DNA from: Podarcis vaucheri
Lineage: Eukaryota
Assembly: GCA_965113315.1 (NCBI GenBank)
Contig: OZ220377.1
DNA: 64,000 nt
Strand: one strand, 5' to 3'
The notes under the pieces were generated by a model. The model had not been told where the DNA came from. It saw only the letters and a program-made list of their open reading frames with translations, and searched no databases. The position numbers and the translations under genes were made by a program. Position 1 is the first letter of the stretch; each line of letters begins with the position of its first letter. This document shows, piece by piece, positions 3,982-53,655 of the stretch.

Positions 3982-4418
3982 TGTCAGGGAACTGCCATCA
4001 GAGGCACGGGAGAAGGAGAGGGTCTCTGATTCTGCAGGGGAAGGTCCAAGCACTAGAGGGAGACGCAGCCGGGTAGAAGGGGAAGAGAATGAGGGTAACA
4101 CCAGGGATTCAGGAGAGCAATGGGACAGGGAGGTGCAGGGGCTCCAGGACTCTTCGTTGGAAGTTAGCGAGGAGAGCCCAAGCACCCCGCTGCCCACGCC
4201 CACCCTGCGCAGGAGACTCCCGCGCAGTGAGAGGCAGAAACGATTGGGCGTCAAACAACTCTTATGTTGGCAACACTTTAAGAAACGCCCACAGACAGAT
4301 TCTACAAGTGACTAAGGGCAGCCACGCAAATATGGGCTGCGCAGTCCGGAGGGTTTAACCAGGCAATCCGATGCTCAAACGGAGCAGGATTACGCACGAG
4401 TAACTCCCAGCCACTACA
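3982..4418 (+). mobile_element. Solo LTR (Gypsy-like)
   Basis: TG...CA termini; perfect 5-bp TSD TTGAG (3977-3981, 4419-4423); cleanly splits the L2. Confidence 0.8.
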
Positions 4419-11472: not shown

Positions 11473-11860
11473 CTCCCATCACCCCTGGCAATTCACCATC
11501 TGGAGCCACAGATTCCCCACACAGATACAGCTTAGGCCCAGGCTCTCTGAAGGGCTGGATTCTTCCACACAAACTTGCCCAGGCTCTGATATCTTCGGAG
11601 GAGACCCTGGCTACTTCAGCAGCCAGCCTCATTCCAAAATCAGACCATTGGTCCATCTAGCTTAGTATTGTCTACCCTGACTGGCAGCAGCTCTCCAGGG
11701 GATGCTCCCAAGCCCTACCTGCAGATGTCATTGGGGACTGAAGCTGAGACCTTCTGCCTGCAAAGTACTACTGAGCTATTGTCTGCTACAAAGGGGGGCG
11801 GTCTAGTTCCCATGGCTTTAAATAAAGGACTGAGTTAAGAATGTAGGAAGCTGTTGCATT

Positions 11861-11992: not shown

Positions 11993-12498
11993 CTAGCTCA
12001 ATATTGTCTCCTCTGACTGGCAGCAGCTCTCCTAGCTCAATATTGTCTCCTCTGACTGGCAGAAGCTCTCCTACCTCAATATTGTCTCCTCTAACTGGCA
12101 GCAGCTCTCCTACCTCAATATTGTCTCCTCTGACTGGCAGCAGCCCTCCTAGCTCAATATTGTCTCCTCTGACTGGCAGCAGCTCTCCTAGCTCAATATT
12201 GTCTCCTCTGACTGGCAGCCGCTCTCCTGGCTCAATATTGTCTCCTCTGACTGGCAACAGCTCTCCTAGCTCAATATTGTCTCCTCTGACTGGCAACAGC
12301 TCTCCTACTCAATATTGTCTCCTCTGACAGGCAGCAGCTCTCCTAGCTAAACATTGTCTCCTCTGACTGGCAGCAGCTCTCCTAGCTCAATATTGTCTCC
12401 TCTGACTGGCAGAAGCTCTCCTAGCTCAATATTGTCTCCTCTGACTGGCAGAAGCTCTCCTAGCTCAATATTGTCTCTTCTGACTGGCAGCAGCTCTC
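11993..12498. repeat. Minisatellite, 13 x 39 bp (CTAGCTCAATATTGTCTCCTCTGACTGGCAGCAGCTCTC)
   Basis: Thirteen units counted; unit 9 has a 1-nt deletion. Confidence 0.97.
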
Positions 12499-12829
12499 CG
12501 TGGTTTCAGGCAGAGGGCACTCCCAGCCTTGCCTGGAGAATGAACCTGGGATGTTCTACACGCAAGACAGCTGCTCTATTACTGAGCTACAGCCTTTACT
12601 GCGCTTCCAATAGGCCTCACTACCTGCATCAGGGCAGCAGACCTCAGTCCCCAAGGCTTGTTTGTTTTTGTGCAAGCAGGGAAGAGTTTTGCTGCATACA
12701 TTGGCAGCCTGCCCAGTATGCAGAAGGCCCTCCTTTGCCCCTCTGATCCCCATGTTTCCCGGCCCGGCACATATTCTCATAGGAATCCCTCTTTCGCCAT
12801 ACAGTATTAACACAGCCTTGTATCAAGTC

Positions 12830-17773: not shown

Positions 17774-18739
17774 AAAGCATGCACACAGAGCATGCATTCA
17801 TTGCAGAGCCGGCTTGCTCATTTGGCGGGGTGAAGCATCTGCCTCAGGCGGCAGAAACACAAGCACCCTGCCCGACGACTTCTGCCACCACTGGAACCCC
17901 TTTTCTCTTTAACTTTTTGGTGAAAGGGGAACTTTCCAGCATGTGGCATTGCTGTTTGTCTTCCTCACCACTGGGGTAGAGAAGATGTCATGGACTGGCT
18001 GCATGCAGAGACGTGGTGGGAGGCACCAGCTGGGGACCCCCAAGGGCACCCCTGGGGAAGAAGACTCCGAGCCGGTGGTGGGATGACGATGAGTGGTCAC
18101 AGGGAGAAGAAGGAGCAGACTGGGAGGAGCAGGTCAGAAACAGAAGAGGTAACAGGCTTTGGTGAGCAGGAAGAGGCTATGGCAGAGAGCAGTTCAGACT
18201 CTGAGGCAGAAGTGGAGGCTGGAGTGGTGTGGGGCCAGGAGACAGAGATGAGGCTGGCTGCTGAAGTAGCCAGGGAGTCTCCTCTTCCTGCTGTGACCAG
18301 CTCCCTTCTCCCCCCGTTCTCCTGGAACCTGCAGAGTTATGAAGAGGGCAGAGCAGAAGCGGGTTCTGTGCAGGCTCAGTCTATGACTGCTTGGGAAAGA
18401 CCCTGGAGAGGAGACAACTTAGGAATAGGGCAGGGCAATGTACATCGTCCAAAACCAGTTTCAAGTCCACATTGTGGTAACAGCTTCATAATACTCAACA
18501 TGGCGATATATCAGGAATCACAATGTGTGCGCGTGCTATGGAAAAAAAAGGGATGTGGGAAAAACCGTGGGCCCAGTCACCACTTCTTTCATGATTCCTG
18601 CCGCCCCTTTTGCTCTGTATTATAGAATAACACTTGTAACAATATAACATAAGTAAAACATATAAGGTAAGTTAAAATACTGTATATCAGTATTAGACCC
18701 CTAAGTAGCTGATGTTATCACCAGCTAAATATTGCAATA

Positions 18740-18943
18740 TAGTCGTACCTTGGTTTTCAAACAGCTTAGTTCTCAAATGTTTTGGCTCCCAGACGCTGCA
18801 AACCCGAAAGTGACGGTTCTGGTTTGTGAACTATTTTCAGAAGCCGAACGTCCGGTGCAGCTTCTGCAGCTTTGGTTTCTGAATGTTTTGGAAGTCAAAC
18901 AGACTTCCAGAACGGATTCCGTTCGGCTGCCAAGGTATGACTG
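18740..18943. mobile_element. Tigger-like MITE (CAGTCGTACC-type TIR)
   Basis: TIRs and TA TSD; homologous copy at 38575-38815. Confidence 0.75.
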
Positions 18944-18953
18944 TACTCATATA

Positions 18954-19115
18954 CAGTGGTACTTTGAGTTAAGAACTTAATTCGTGCTGCCGCCACACGA
19001 TTTCTGTTCTCATCCTGAAGCGAAATTCTTAACCCGAGGTACTATTTCTGGGTTAGCGGAGTCTGTAACCTGAAGCATCTGTAACCTAAAGTGTCTGTAA
19101 CCCGAGGTACCACTG
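18954..19115. mobile_element. Tigger-like MITE (CAGTGGTAC-type TIR)
   Basis: Same family as 5042-5250; TA TSD. Confidence 0.8.
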
Positions 19116-19559
19116 TATCACAATGTCTAAATAAGGATGGCACTACATAGAGGCAAAAGGGGCAATGTCCTGGCAACTGCTACTACTTAGGGGTCTAAAA
19201 TGTTGAAAACCAGACATTGCTCAGAAGTGGTGGGAAGGCAGGGACCTTCAGTCCTTGCAACAGCCCCGTTGGAGCAAGATCTACTGGAAAGAGTTGATGG
19301 GATCCCTAGGCCTGCACTGTTTGGGTTCCTTGAATAAAGAGTTGAGTATTTTTCTTCGATTGTTGACTTATGCTTGACTCCATCTTCTGATGGAAGATGA
19401 GCATCAAGGCCTTGTGGAGTGCTCCCTCGTTTGCCATTTGGTGAGGGGTGGGTGTGTGCATTCCAGCAGTTGCGGGAGGAAAGCGACACTGTGGGGCAGG
19501 GGGTGGCACATTCCCGTTTCGCCTCAGGTGGCGGAATGGGACAGGCTCGTTCATTGCAA

Positions 19560-26869: not shown

Positions 26870-28200
26870 GAGGGCGGGACGGGGAATAGCCTTGGTGACC
26901 AGCCCGGGCCTTCACCCTCAGCCCTCTCTCCTCCATCTTCTCACAGCTCAAAAAAGGCTCAAACGCTTCTCTCTCTCCACCTCCCCCCCCCCACGCCCCG
27001 CGCTTCAGCAGCCTGAGGAGAGCGGGCCGTCCCATTCCGCGCCTCCGCGGGGGTGTCCCACTCACCACCCTCGCCTCGCGCCTCCCCCCCGGGCTCCCCT
27101 TCGCCCCTCTCTTCCCCGCACCGCACCGGAGCTCAGCCCCCCTGGGGCCAGGGCGCGGAGGAGCGGGGTCCCCGGCTCCCCATCCGGCCCCGCCCTCTCC
27201 CCTCTCCCCGCCGAACCCCCCTATTCGGGGCGATGGTACGGCCCGCGGGTTAGCGGAAGCGCGGCCGCTGTGGCGCTGCCATGTTGAGCAGCCTCCTCCT
27301 CTCCACCTCCTCCTCCTCCGCCGCCGCCGCCGCCGCAGCAGCCCCAGCCGCCGCCGCTTGTGCTTTGTTGTCGGCTCCATGTAGTTGGGGGCCCGGGGGA
27401 GGGAGGAGGGGAGGGGGGCGGGCGGGGGAGAGAGAGAGAGAGGAGAGAGAGAGAGGGAAAAAAAAGAGAGGGAGAGGGAGGCGAGCAGGCAGGAAGAGCG
27501 AGCGGGCGCTGTGAGGAGCCGCAAAAAGACCAGGCCGCCGGGCCTGAGGAGAGAGAGGGAGGCACCATTTATATATATATCTATATCTTATAACTCTTAT
27601 CTATCTATATACAGAAGGCACTATTTTTTATTTTTTTAAAAAACATATATATATATCTATATATATAACCTTCCGTATTCCCGGCTGCCGCCGCCGCTTC
27701 CAAAGCCATGGAAGCCAATTGGACCGCGTTCCTCTTTCAGGTGAGGGGAGAAAAGACGACCACCCTCTTCAAAAACCAACCCCCCCCCCCGCACCGCGCG
27801 CGCACTTCTGAATAGCCCCCCCCCTCCTTAAATGTCCCCGCCTCTCCCTCCCCCAACCCCCCCTCCCTCCCTCCCGCCCGCGCTTGCCTGCCTCCCCCCC
27901 CCCCCGCACAAGGCACCCCGCGCAACCCTCCCCGCCAGGCCCTGATTCTTCTTGCAAAGGGCCGGCTCGCTCTGTCAGCAGCAGCGGCGGCGGGCGACCC
28001 CCCCCCCGCTAGAATAGCCGCGCGCGAGGGGGGGCGGAATAGCGGGAGGGAGGAGAATGTAGCTGCTCTCTACGGCGCTGTGGGAGGCCGGCTATAGCGC
28101 GCTCGCTCTCCCTCTTTCTCTCTTTTCTCCTCTCTCCTCCCCCCACCCGCAGCCGCCTGCGTCCGAAACAGCAGCCCCGCCACTACCGAAAAACAAACAC
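26870..28200 (+). promoter_or_regulatory. VEZF1: CpG island: VEZF1 promoter, 5' UTR and start of intron 1
   Basis: Very high GC and CpG content; GC boxes; ETS-like AGCGGAAG near 27252; YY1-like GCCATGTT near 27278; (GCC)n and (GA)n tracts; surrounds exon 1. Confidence 0.9.
27708..27740 (+). CDS. VEZF1: VEZF1 coding exon 1 (MEANWTAFLFQ)
   Basis: Kozak gccATGg at 27708; translates to the VEZF1 N-terminus; donor CAG|GTGAGG at 27741; phase 0. Confidence 0.97.
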
Positions 28201-40449: not shown

Positions 40450-41147
40450 GCACACGAAGCATCACATCACCAACAGCAGGCAGCACAGAACAGTTTGCTG
40501 CCACTCCTGAGCTCTGCTGTTGAGCCCCCCGACCAGAAACCAATTTTACCATTACCAATAACACAGAAACCTCAGCCCCCACCGGAAACGCTAAAAGATA
40601 CCATAGTCGGGATTAAAAAGGAGAAACCGAAAACCTCCTTTGTGTGCACATACTGCAGCAAGGCCTTCAGGGACAGCTACCATTTGAGGCGCCATGAATC
40701 CTGCCACACAGGGATAAAGTTAGTGTCACGGCCAAAGAAAGCTCCTGCAACGATGGTGCCCCTAATCTCGACCATCGCAGGTGACAACAACCGGTCAACG
40801 CTGGTTTCGACCATCGCAGGTATCCTCTCAACAGTCACTACGTCTTCCTCCGCCACCAACCCAAGCAGCAGTGCTGGTGCCACAGCAATGCCGGTGACGC
40901 AGACGGCGAAGAAGCCCAGTAAGCCTGTCAAAAAGAACCACGCCTGTGAGATGTGTGGCAAGGCCTTCCGTGACGTCTACCACCTCAATAGGCACAAGCT
41001 GTCCCACTCAGATGAGAAGCCTTTTGAGTGCCCAATTTGCAACCAGCGTTTCAAAAGGAAGGACCGCATGACCTATCACGTGAGGTCTCATGAGGGTGGC
41101 ATCACCAAACCCTACACCTGTGGTGTTTGTGGAAAAGGCTTTTCGAG
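40450..41147 (+). CDS. VEZF1: VEZF1 coding exon 2 (AHEASHHQQQ... zinc fingers 1-3 and start of finger 4)
   Basis: Acceptor ttctgtttttag|G; C2H2 fingers CTYC, CEMC, CPIC, CGVC; near-identical to recalled human VEZF1; donor AG|GTACCA at 41148. Confidence 0.98.
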
Positions 41148-47803: not shown

Positions 47804-47947
47804 CATGCATGAACGAAGAGAGTAACAACCAGAAGCAGCAGCAGCAGCAGCAACAGCAGCAGCCACAACAGCATGTCACAAATTGGCCTGGAAAACAGGT
47901 AGAGACCCTGAGATTATGGGAAGAAGCTGTTAAAGCAAGGAAGAAAG
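47804..47947 (+). CDS. VEZF1: VEZF1 coding exon 5 (polyQ; LRLWEEAVKARKK)
   Basis: TCMNEESNNQK-Q9-PQQHVTNWPGKQVETLRLWEEAVKARKK; 144 nt, phase 1-1; donor AAG|GTAAAA. Confidence 0.95.
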
Positions 47948-50900
47948 GTAAAAATCTATGCCCTTAGAATGTTGTTAAGTGATGCTGTTGGTGATAGATC
48001 AAATTCACAATAACACTTGTGTCGTGGCAGCAGCCACTAGATAATCTGGCATTCCCTCCTGCCATTGCCAATCAGACTCACAATAGGTCCTTACCGCTTA
48101 ATCACCTCAAGCAATTGCCCAATTATGAGAGCAGGCTGGGAGACATTAGTCCTGTTATGTGTTAGCAAGTCACCTGTCAGCGTGGTCTGCTGCTTAAATA
48201 AAAAATGTGAGCTCTTGCTCCAGTGTTAAGAATTGGGGACATATAGAAAACTTTGATTTAAAACCTTTTATGGCAATTTCTTTTGTAAAGCTATGAACTC
48301 TAGTGATAGAATTAAGACCAATCAGAGGCATACTAAAGAAAGAAAAGAAAAAAGAAGTTACAAGTCCTTCATCGGAGAACTAGTTTCTGGGTTCCCCTTG
48401 GAGAATTCTCAGCAACTTTGGAAAGCCAGAGAAGTTAAACTGGTATAAAGCCACAGTGTAGATATTCTCAATTTTGATGTCAGGTTGCTCTAAGTTGGCT
48501 AGGAAGGCATCTGGCCTAGGTTTCTTGACCTTGTTACCAATCTCATCCCACTTGCTTTTTATTCCCATCTTGTCTTTCACTTGACATTTTAACAACTTTC
48601 TGTTGCTTTCTTGTGTGACTAGTTGCAAAACAACAAAAAGTGGTATGTTCTCTTCTTGCCAGGGTGACTCCAAGACCTGCTGTAGGCTGAGCTGGTCACT
48701 CAGTTGCCTTTTTTGTAGCTCATTTTTGTCTTAACTTTATAACGCACACAAGTAAGCCAAGGAGGTGTTGGCTGACCATTGGAGGATAATGACATAACTC
48801 ATCTAATGGAGTCTAAGTTACTAATTCTTCTCCACACTTGAGCTTCTAATGGCGGTCCTTTTGTTTCAGATACGTTTTTTTCTTAAAATAGTATGAAAAG
48901 TACACTTGTCTTTCTATTACTATGTCTTGCGGTGGCTTCCATACAAGGAAGTAGCAGCGACCTAATGCAGTGAAAATCAGTGCCAGATTTAAAAAATCTT
49001 TGTTTAAATGCAGGTAATAGTGGCCTAGTTTGCACATATGTTAAGTCATGGCTTGTTAAACCATGATTTCTTGGCTTGTCTGATCCCCTGTCCAGCAGCT
49101 TAACTGTGGTTTGTTAATTGCCAAGAAACCACATATTGAAGCCATGGTTCGCTGGCTAAGTTTTGTTTTGACATTGCGTGCAAATCCAGTACCTTTCCTT
49201 AACCATGGTTTGTTCAGCCACTGCAACCTAGATGCTTGCCAAGCTACAAAGACAGAAGGCAAGCGTAGCTAGGGGAAAAAATCAAACTCTTGAGAAGGAA
49301 GCCATATTTTGTTAGATTGCCTGTGGAACAACTCTTGGTTTGTTAGCCAAACAAGGGTTTTGGGTTATGGGTGAAATAGGCCAGTATAATATATATGTGG
49401 TTTTTTTGTATGAATAGAAGCTACAGAACAACTCTTGGTTACAGGTCCACTTTGATATTTCTCCTTCCATCCACACTAACTTTTTCAGCTGTTGTTGAGC
49501 AGTGTACTTCCTTAAAGAAGATTACTGTAGTAGAAGTCTTGCAGATAATGATCATATGGCAATGTCCAGTTTTTATTAGGATTAATGAGTATATTGATAT
49601 CCTTATTATTTGGATTTTTGTGTTGTACACCAAAGAAATCTGGCAATTACAACAAACCATCCAGGTGTTCCTCTTGCGTTATTCTGCTTTCAGAGTTGAG
49701 ATTTTCAGGGCGAAGAATGATACAGCAGATTCCATAATTATAATTTCTGGGCCACTAGAACACACTCTGACACACACTAGTCTTGCCAAGCTTTCTTCTA
49801 ATTTCCCTTTGAAAAAGCTAAGACTTCTTGGGATGCTGAATCCTGAACACTAAATCCCATTCTTTCTAGTGAAAGATGTAGCAATATTTAATCTTATAAT
49901 CCTGTTCCTCCAATGGCAGCATGCACAGCTTCATGCTAATTTGGCTTCACAGATAAATTGAGAATGTAACTGGTTCAAGGTTATTACTCCATTTTATGAT
50001 TGACTAGGGATTTGAACGTGGGTTCCCCAATGCAAATCCAGGTTGCTTATGTATATGATCCTGGCATGCTCTTAATGCTTAATGCATAGAGTCTTCCTTA
50101 GGACCCAGAGTTTCCCTTCCTTCCCAGATAAAGGTGTGTTGAAGTGAACTCCAGTTCCTCAATAACTGACGTCATATTTTAGCCCCACTAAACACCTGCA
50201 TTTCTTTCTTGTGTTGCCATTTGCTCCTTCATCTTCCTCTGGTGCCTACGGTGGCTGCTGGCATCTTAATTGCATTGCCCTATTTTTTATGAACTGTGCA
50301 TGCACACAGAGCCAGGGAACTTGGGGATGGAGAGACTGTTAGAGTTGTAGCTGGGTGGGGACCGGTGGAATCCTGAACTCTCCATAGGGTGCAAAGACTG
50401 AACTGGGAGAGAAGCCCCCGCAACCTAGGAACAGGGATGGTTTGACAACTTGGTGGAAGCTGAGCCTGCAATTGCATGAATGGTCAACTTTCTTGGGCAA
50501 AAAGCAGAAGGCATTGGCCATTTCTTAAGGCAGTTTTAACCACTGATTTTTGGAAGACAGAGTTTTCAAACATGATGTAGACCGAGCATTTTTATACCTC
50601 AGAAGGCAAGAAAAGGGAATGTCAAGAAAAGAAACCATTCAAATAATTTTTGCCTGGTGTAACTAAAGGGCCGTGGAGGTAGCCTGAGAAAGGATGGCCA
50701 GAGTGCGAGTGGAAAGTACTTTAGCCTTAATTGATTCTGAATCACTTGCACAAAAGGAAAACAGTTGCATTCCATTGAGAAGTGGAACCCATTGGCTCTG
50801 CTGCAGAAACACCAGCCACAGCACAAAGCAGCCCAGTGCACAAACAGAAAGGTCTGACTTCAGGATGCATCCTGCCTTGGCTTCTTGGGACACAAGCCAG

Positions 50901-52177: not shown

Positions 52178-53227
52178 ATATACTAGAGGTATTTACCTCT
52201 ACCATGTACACTTCCTGCTTATTCTCCCCACACGGTTAGCCCCAAGGGTCCTTCTGGTGTACATTATAAGCCTAACTCTTTCTCAAAATTCTAAAGGAAA
52301 CACTGGTGTGTAACTTTTAGCCAACCTGAAAAGCTATGTGACCAGTGGGGTTTGATGCACACACCTTACTGACTGGGGTGTTGTAGTAATTTAGTAAGAA
52401 GTTACACTTACTAAATTATTCCGCCAACTGTGGTTTAAATTGATCTTAAGCAGGTAAATAGTGAAACCAGCTTTATGTATTGGTCCCTAATAATGACTTT
52501 TTAAAACCTTCACAGAATGTCAGTACAACTTTGAGAAGGCTATAGAGTACGTACCATTCGGTATGTACACTCTCCTCTACTTATAATGTTCCTCATGAGA
52601 GGATTTTCTGCTAATACTGTGCTGTTTTTATGAACAAATCCCCCTTTTATATTTTAAAAAACAACTTTCGAAGGAAATGTATTTAATTCAGATGAATTGC
52701 ATGATTGAAGTTAACCTAGGCTGTAGAATTAATTGTATTTAATGATCTTATTCCCAAATTGATGCTGTTTGAGGATACTTAACTGTTGCAGAGAGAGAAC
52801 AGAGAATTTGTTGACTGCCATTAGTTTTCTTTAAAAAAAAATCCAGTGGTTTTGCCAAATTACCAGGAAACCTGAGAATAGCTGCAGGTTGATGGTTAAT
52901 TTGTTGGCCTGCAAGCACTCTGTAGCCATTGGCTGAGCTGCTGTGAGTGAACTGTCAGCAATGAGGGACAGGAGCTGGAAGGGACCATGTGTTGCAGTGG
53001 GAAGGGATACTTAGAGATGGAGGGCTGGCTTTGCAAGAGTACAGGTATGAACCCACAAAAAAATGCAGTAAGGTTTATGTAATGGACTCGTCGTCCATTA
53101 TTTAATGGACCCTTCTAAGGACTGCCATGCCAGGGGTTCAAAGTCTTCTCTGGGGTGTCTTTTAATTTTAATGTTTAGGAAAAAAACAACCTTTGGTCTC
53201 TTTTTATATCTCTTTCTTGTTTTTTAG

Positions 53228-53655
53228 AAGCTGCTAACCTGTGCCAAACGTCCACTGCTGCCACTACGCCTGTGACTCTTTCTACTCCCTTCAATATAAC
53301 TTCCTCAGTGGCATCTGGGACCATCACCAACCCAGTCACAGTGGCTGCTGCAATGAACATGAGAAGCCCAGTCAATGTATCAAGCGCAGTTAACATCTCC
53401 AGCCCGATGAGCCTAGGCCACCCTGTCACCATTACCAGTCCGTTGTCTATGACCTCTCCGTTAACACTCACCACACCTGTTAATTTACCAACTTCAGTAA
53501 CTGCTCCAGTGAACATAGCACATCCGGTCACTATAACCTCACCCATGAACCTCCCGACGCCAATGACATTAGCTGGTCCATTAAATATAGCAATGAGGCC
53601 AGTGGAGAGCATGCCTTTCCTTCCCCAGGCATTGCCAACCTCTCCCCCATGGTAA
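53228..53655 (+). CDS. VEZF1: VEZF1 coding exon 6 (P/T/S-rich C-terminus ending ...ALPTSPPW*)
   Basis: Acceptor ttttttag|AAG; EAANLCQTSTAATTP...; TAA at 53653-53655; joined CDS is 1551 nt = 516 aa. Confidence 0.97.

What the first reader, a model, noticed from the sequence alone, without database searches (positions are those of the whole stretch)
17986..18420. A second, sequence-dissimilar LTR with the same ORF architecture and register
Seen: TGTC-ATG starts MDWLHAETWWEAPAG. Correcting a few single-base frameshifts by eye gives ...EEDSEP-WWDDDEWSQGEEGADWEEQV-ETEEVTGFGEQEEAMAESSSDSEAE...ESPLPAVTSS..SPGTCRVMKRAEQKRVLCRLSL*LLGK. The TGC and TGA codons look like CpG-decayed Arg codons, implying an ancestral SP-x-TRR...RRxSLRL. 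Trp-studded acidic tracts resemble activation domains, and RRSxRL resembles nucleosome acidic-patch binding motifs such as HMGN RRSARL. Inference: two different LTR families share an acidic-SP-basic protein starting at base 5, which suggests a conserved LTR-encoded transactivator or chromatin tether.
Basis: partly seen in the sequence, partly recalled or inferred. Interest (0 to 1): 0.72.

Follow-up and report, generated by a model that had tools for sequence, protein, structure and literature searches.

The report
Integrase tail fossil in lizard LTR
This is a broken, lone end-repeat of an old lizard jumping gene whose protein-coding trace is likely the tail of the element's integrase rather than a separate gene, and such tails would plausibly help tether the element to chromatin.

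Summary
It belongs to an old, high-copy family (mean pairwise identity 76%). The acidic-SP-basic frame is real: unbroken natural copies exist, and variants shared between copies favour third codon positions (p=0.0014) and in-frame indels. It is probably not a gene starting at base 5. The window's other LTR (3982-4418) has AGG there, and its peptide is the last 110 residues of a 1256-aa chromovirus Pol frame that crosses the PPT into the 3' LTR. A third family starts TGTG-ATG, carries RRSARL and is fused the same way. Two sister families with related peptides have no ATG (0/23, 0/29). The frame is therefore most likely an integrase C-terminal tail encoded in U3, as in plant CRM elements. This family's own internal region was not found (0 of 158 loci), so fusion is inferred. 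Chromatin tethering is untested. The scan's earlier notes showed nothing on this DNA.

The parts
17981..17985 (+). 5' target-site duplication GAAGA
17986..18425 (+). 5' part (inferred U3) of the solo LTR, family 2; starts TGTC
   Evidence: blastn match to other copies ends at 18413, by eye about 18425
17987..18420 (+). decayed acidic-SP-basic reading frame in register from LTR base 2 (four frame changes, one stop); inferred integrase C-terminal tail
   Evidence: unbroken natural copies; selection tests
18426..19222 (.). later insertion(s) of about 800 bp splitting the LTR, including a nested common repeat at about 18950-19118; boundaries approximate
   Evidence: contigs joining 18413/18423 to 19230/19231
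19223..19392 (+). 3' part (inferred R-U5) of the same LTR with AATAAA at 19333-19338; last two bases decayed in this genome, canonical CA end in orthologous copies of organisms F and G
19393..19397 (+). 3' target-site duplication GAAGA
3982..4418 (+). the window's other LTR (family 1): young 437-bp solo LTR of a chromodomain Gypsy element, TSD TTGAG, starts TGTC-AGG
3983..4315 (+). open frame in the family-1 LTR, equal to the last ~110 residues of Pol (91% identical to P0001 1145-1256)

Best explanation
The stretch is the 5' part of a decayed solo LTR of an old lizard retrotransposon family, and its acidic-SP-basic frame is likely the C-terminal tail of the element's Pol/integrase, which in the full element would read across the polypurine tract into the 3' LTR. 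Shown: LTR structure; past purifying selection on the frame; Pol-into-LTR fusion in two other lizard chromodomain-Gypsy families with the same register and architecture. Inferred: the same fusion for this family (about 0.75); the ATG is an internal Val-Met codon pair created by the terminal TGTC/TGTG sequence. Function, inferred (about 0.4): a disordered tail after the chromodomain whose basic SP/RR..RL end gives nuclear import and nucleosome binding to the integration complex, with the acidic Trp-rich part contacting host chromatin factors. This copy has no upstream Pol and a broken frame, so it is a fossil.
For: Family 1: 2 of 4 full elements read unbroken from integrase into the 3' LTR, one is in register with a stop just upstream, and one is frameshifted. 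P0001 is 1256 aa, RT-RH-IN-SH3-Chromo-tail. 16 of 23 junctions are in register (p=0.0004) and 9 are open >=50 codons into the LTR. A UniRef Podarcis muralis Pol carries the same tail fused (P0016). Family 3 (TGTG-ATG start): IN-SH3-Chromo then VMAW...SP...RRSARL in one frame in 9 of 23 loci, 11 of 23 in register, with open frames up to 1558 aa. A further family reads chromodomain, then a Trp-studded acidic tract, GGGD|V and SPKTRRR (L244, L246; LTR edge inferred from the junction only). Sister family L272 encodes a true homologue of the family-2 peptide (43.8 bits, 0 of 1000 shuffles) with ATG in 0 of 23 copies. Weaker relative L273 (10 bits): ATG in 0 of 29. Family-2 selection over 82 copies: pairwise dN/dS 0.50 in register vs 0.80 and 0.79 in the other frames. 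Non-CpG transversion rate is 0.107 at 4-fold vs 0.056 at 0-fold sites; the other frames give 0.058/0.073 and 0.076/0.074. Shared alleles fall at 28 of 118 third positions vs 25 of 239 others, p=0.0014; this holds across thresholds, with no periodicity after the stop (small n). Shared length changes are +12 (12 copies), -3 (4), -3 (10), +3 (21), -3 (7) vs -1 (4, 4, 7). [quoted passage not shown]
Against: No internal region was found beside any of 158 family-2 loci or 58 sister-family loci, so fusion is not shown for this family. The family-2 profile has no significant similarity to any Pol-fused tail: best 2 of 300 shuffles among 7 tests. ATG is common in family 2 (58 of 82; 31 of 45). In family 3, 12 of 23 copies are out of register through length changes in a G-run after the chromodomain (binomial p=0.11). 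One chromodomain family (L160 type) stops before the PPT, so read-through is not universal. The exact HMGN motif is absent from family 2 (0 of 82). Pairwise dN/dS values are not independent.
Confidence: 0.75

Rival explanations
1. The frame is a stand-alone accessory gene in U3, initiated at the base-5 ATG from a spliced or subgenomic RNA, and works as a transactivator or chromatin tether.
For: ATG in 58 of 82 and 31 of 45 family-2 copies. Purifying selection on the frame. Trp-studded acidic tract (37% D/E in the first two thirds and 9 Trp in L028). Family 3 also has ATG and 12 of 23 copies uncouple the tail.
Against: Homologous sister-family peptides have no ATG (0 of 23, 0 of 29). Family 1 has AGG and is Pol-fused. 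The ATG-bearing family 3 is Pol-fused in its commonest class. By standard LTR biology base 5 lies in U3, upstream of the transcription start; in family 1 the self-priming-like complement points to a start near LTR nt 310.
Confidence: 0.12
2. The LTR belongs to another kind of element (a non-chromodomain Gypsy, an endogenous retrovirus, or a non-autonomous element that kept a parent's LTR), and the frame is the end of a different gene such as env or an extra ORF.
For: No internal region in 158 loci. No detectable homology to the Pol-fused tails.
Against: TGTCA start, register, 5-bp TSD and acidic-SP-RR architecture match the chromodomain families. Three L273-family copies retain a PPT-like GGGGTGA|TGTC junction read in frame as GGD|V, like the fused families.
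Confidence: 0.08
3. The peptide is a by-product of purine-rich U3 DNA and was never translated.
For: The stretch is 37% G, which favours Glu/Gly/Trp codons. Most copies carry stops or frameshifts. No Pfam or Atlas match.
Against: Third-position excess of shared variants, 4-fold vs 0-fold contrast, in-frame shared indels, and no such signal after the stop or in the other frames. Peptide-level homology to a DNA-divergent sister family.
Confidence: 0.05

Closest known systems
Plant CRM-clade chromoviruses, group A (CR motif; PMC3059260 and PMC3605345, passages read)
   Same: The Pol reading frame extends into the 3' LTR, so the LTR encodes the integrase C-terminus, which there serves as a putative targeting domain.
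   Different: In CRM the CR motif replaces the chromodomain. In the lizard families a chromodomain lies upstream of the PPT and the LTR adds a further acidic-SP-basic tail. No sequence comparison with CR was made, and the fusion is only inferred for the family of this finding.
Chromodomain Ty3/Gypsy elements of lizards (families 1 and 3 here; UniRef 'Gypsy retrotransposon integrase-like protein 1' of Podarcis muralis, P0016); the Sushi/Tf1-like grouping is recalled
   Same: TG...CA ends, 5-bp TSD, AATAAA near the 3' end, same codon register from base 2, acidic then SP then Arg-rich architecture.
   Different: No detectable sequence similarity of LTR or peptide; family 2 is old and was found only as solo LTRs; its tail is richer in Trp.
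HMGN / Dsup nucleosome-binding motif (RRSARLSA, PPRRSSRLT; PMC12487698, passages read)
   Same: Family 3 tails contain PRRSARL exactly; family 2 has a looser R..SLRL segment after SPR.
   Different: Family 2 has RRSARL in 0 of 82 copies and RRSxRL in 4 of 82; no binding was tested.
TND-interacting motifs (acidic linker with FxGF; PMC9987994, passages read)
   Same: Family-1-clade tails carry acidic-FxGF in 14 of 16 loci, upstream of the PPT.
   Different: Family 2 has only EEVTGF, lacking the first Phe; the obligate helix was not assessed; no binding was tested.

Membership tests
LTR (solo) | TG...CA termini | tested here: met
   TG start in the window. Other copies end in TGACA. The window end is decayed, but orthologous copies in organisms F and G end in CA.
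LTR (solo) | reproducible 4-6 bp target-site duplication | tested here: met
   GAAGA in the window. Of 39 copies with both ends called automatically, 9 have an exact TSD and 18 have <=1 mismatch; about 0.04 exact expected by arithmetic.
LTR (solo) | polyadenylation signal near the 3' end | tested here: met
   AATAAA at 19333 and in many copies
LTR (solo) | paired copies flanking gag-pol | tested here: inconclusive
   None in 158 family-2 loci with 1.3-3 kb flanks, out of thousands of first-look candidates. One nearby gag-pol belonged to another element.
Chromodomain Ty3/Gypsy (chromovirus) | PR-RT-RH-IN order with C-terminal chromodomain | tested here: inconclusive
   Met for families 1 and 3; no internal region found for family 2
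Chromodomain Ty3/Gypsy (chromovirus) | RT phylogeny within chromoviruses | not tested
   no family-2 RT available; no tree built
CRM-like Pol extension into 3' LTR | integrase frame continuous across the PPT into the LTR | tested here: inconclusive
   Met in family 1 (16 of 23 in register) and in the commonest class of family 3 (11 of 23); untestable in family 2 without its internal region
Stand-alone LTR-encoded gene | conserved start codon at base 5 across homologous LTRs | tested here: not met
   ATG in 0 of 23 and 0 of 29 copies of sister families; AGG in family 1
HMGN nucleosome-binding motif | RRSARL core | tested here: not met
   0 of 82 family-2 copies; present in 9 of 23 family-3 open frames
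HMGN nucleosome-binding motif | binding to the H2A-H2B acidic patch | not testable with these tools
   needs a binding assay

The most novel reading that the evidence does not exclude
Lizard chromodomain retrotransposons write a modular chromatin tether into U3: a disordered integrase tail that mimics host motifs (HMGN-type RRSARL for the nucleosome acidic patch, acidic-FxGF for LEDGF/HRP2-type domains, Trp-acidic tracts). It turns over with the LTR, so unrelated families converge on one architecture. This would be a vertebrate counterpart of the plant CR motif, and this copy would be its fossil.
Probability: 0.3. Interest if true: 0.75.

Novelty: new variant of a known kind. Interest (0 to 1): 0.42.

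Why it matters
The locus itself is a dead solo LTR. What it points to is that thousands of lizard solo LTRs carry the fossil end of integrase, which explains recurring 'ORFs at LTR base 5' and warns against calling them new genes. If the tails bind nucleosomes or TND proteins, they give directly testable short motifs for how vertebrate Gypsy elements reach chromatin and choose sites. My paper searches (result listings only) showed no report of this in squamates or of HMGN-like motifs in retrotransposon integrases. The library lacks most subscription journals, and Repbase annotations could not be seen.

Tried and rejected
Finding the family-2 internal region failed by every route. PPT-plus-start patterns gave 1, 4 and 12 matches, none with an integrase or chromodomain flank (checked). 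A guessed self-priming pattern gave 168 matches; none of the 30 fetched was family 2. Flank screening covered 158 family-2 and 58 sister-family loci. Walking downstream from 30 SH3 loci and 50 chromodomain loci reached other families only. Apparent pairs at C36:20.34 Mb, C26:81.05 Mb and C34:22.0 Mb showed no gag-pol in the DNA fetched; the C34 interval was fetched only in part. Protein databases: no longer (250-2000 aa) relative of the family-2 peptide (weak evidence); 14 HMMER hits, all short predicted ORFs that look like solo-LTR translations; no Pfam or Atlas hit. Motif-level homology between family 2 (EEVTGFSE) and family 1 (ESFEGFSE) was considered and rejected as not above shuffles. Expression: no RNA holder was listed. 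Raw RNA reads of a related organism gave only low, two-strand depth from other family copies, which says nothing about this copy. Earlier scan notes by place and by sequence were blank. Supplements of the papers were not read.

Full report
What is there. The window lies in a 1.6-Gb genome (G000:C37) that is lizard-like by its repeats and nearest named protein. The element starts at 17986. The search had 3864 first-look candidates and scored 40; the 39 matches other than itself were 75-82% identical, most aligning from base 1. Other copies are about 600-620 bp and end in TGACA. The window copy matches them to about 18413-18425, resumes at about 19223 after an insertion of about 800 bp, has AATAAA at 19333 and ends at 19392. 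GAAGA flanks both ends. Of 39 copies with both ends called automatically, 9 have an exact 5-bp TSD and 18 have at most one mismatch. The same insertion is present in contigs from three organism labels. Mean pairwise identity of 82 aligned copies is 76%, maximum 87% (12 of 94 loci were dropped as too partial). So this is an old solo LTR.

The frame. In the window it is broken by four frame changes and a stop, but L028 and L115 carry it unbroken. It was coding while the family diversified. Pairwise dN/dS is 0.50 in register against 0.80 and 0.79 in the other frames. With CpG-prone columns removed, transversions are about twice as frequent at 4-fold as at 0-fold sites in register only. Shared alleles fall at 28 of 118 third positions against 25 of 239 others (p=0.0014); p is 0.0001-0.02 over other references and thresholds, with no periodicity after the stop. 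The larger shared length variants are multiples of three, alongside three shared -1 events.

What such frames are. The window's other LTR (3982-4418) is young, with paired copies about 5 kb apart. Four full elements have matching TSDs. In two, Pol runs unbroken over the polypurine tract into the 3' LTR; one has a stop just before the junction and one a frameshift. The 1256-aa frame has RT, RNase H, integrase, SH3 and chromodomain, and its last 110 residues are the window LTR's peptide. That LTR reads TGTC-AGG, without ATG. Over the clade, 16 of 23 junctions are in register and 9 are open well into the LTR; 7 of 30 loci had no junction match and were left out. A UniRef Podarcis muralis Pol has the same fused tail. 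A third, unrelated family starts TGTG-ATG and reads chromodomain, GRGDG|VMAW, acidic, SP, RRSARL in one frame in 9 of 23 loci. Eleven of 23 are in register; the other 12 differ in a G-run after the chromodomain, which may be slippage or assembly error. A fourth family shows a Trp-studded acidic tail ending in SPKTRRR. One family stops before the PPT.

Is the ATG a start? It is common in family 2 (58 of 82 and 31 of 45). But a sister LTR family with a clearly homologous peptide (43.8 bits, 0 of 1000 shuffles) has ATG in 0 of 23 copies, and a weaker relative in 0 of 29. The conserved thing is the register from base 2, as expected if ribosomes enter from upstream.

Limits. The internal region of family 2 was not found in 158 loci (161 examined, 3 belonging to other families), so its fusion to Pol and its chromovirus membership are inferred by analogy. 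The family-2 peptide shows no similarity above shuffles to the fused tails. Its basic end only loosely resembles the HMGN motif: RRSARL 0 of 82, RRSxRL 4 of 82.

Mechanism. Most likely (0.75) the full element made Gag-Pol whose integrase ended in chromodomain plus a disordered tail of about 135 residues encoded in U3 of the 3' LTR. Because U3 is copied to both ends (established LTR biology), every solo LTR carries the tail's codons without a way to translate them. A tether or nuclear-import role for the tail is inferred (about 0.4) from the exact HMGN core in family 3 (motif per PMC12487698, passages), the acidic-FxGF motifs in 14 of 16 family-1-clade loci (motif per PMC9987994, passages) and the plant CR-motif precedent (PMC3059260, PMC3605345, passages). 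General LTR features were checked against PMC3601003 (passages). Other papers were seen as search listings only.

Verdict. Observation partly confirmed, interpretation redirected: a new variant of a known arrangement, with an interesting but untested motif lead. Interest 0.42.

Noticed in passing
L161-L189, P0001 1070-1125, P0016: Family-1-clade integrase tails carry one or two acidic-FxGF motifs (e.g. DEEEFEGF type) between chromodomain and PPT in 14 of 16 loci, resembling LEDGF/HRP2-binding TND-interacting motifs.
   Followed up: partly
L220-L242 (family 3): Tail contains PRRSARL, the HMGN nucleosome-binding core; a G-run right after the chromodomain varies in length in 12 of 23 copies and shifts the tail out of frame.
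   Followed up: partly
L061; window 4291-4301: The 11 nt just inside the family-1 5' LTR are complementary to LTR nt 310-320, suggesting Tf1-like self-priming (name recalled) and a transcription start near there.
   Followed up: partly
L273, L312, L329: Three copies of a sister LTR family begin with a 45-nt in-frame duplication of the LTR start that ends in a PPT-like GGGGTGA|TGTC junction.
   Followed up: partly
G000:C41: This 41-Mb contig holds most top-scoring intact Gypsy internals; possibly a sex-limited chromosome (guess).
   Followed up: no
window 27000-28100, 40453-41145, 47830-47960, 53179-53655: GC-rich promoter-like region and exons of a C2H2 zinc-finger gene (Pfam), VEZF1-like by recall; the solo LTR lies about 8 kb upstream of it.
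   Followed up: no
window 11993-12499: 13-copy 39-bp tandem array derived from a dispersed repeat also found at 11637, 13162, 13370 and 36587.
   Followed up: no
L264: Another TGTC-ATG repeat with a shorter acidic, SP, RR-type frame (VMDW start), not matching family 2 by blastn.
   Followed up: no
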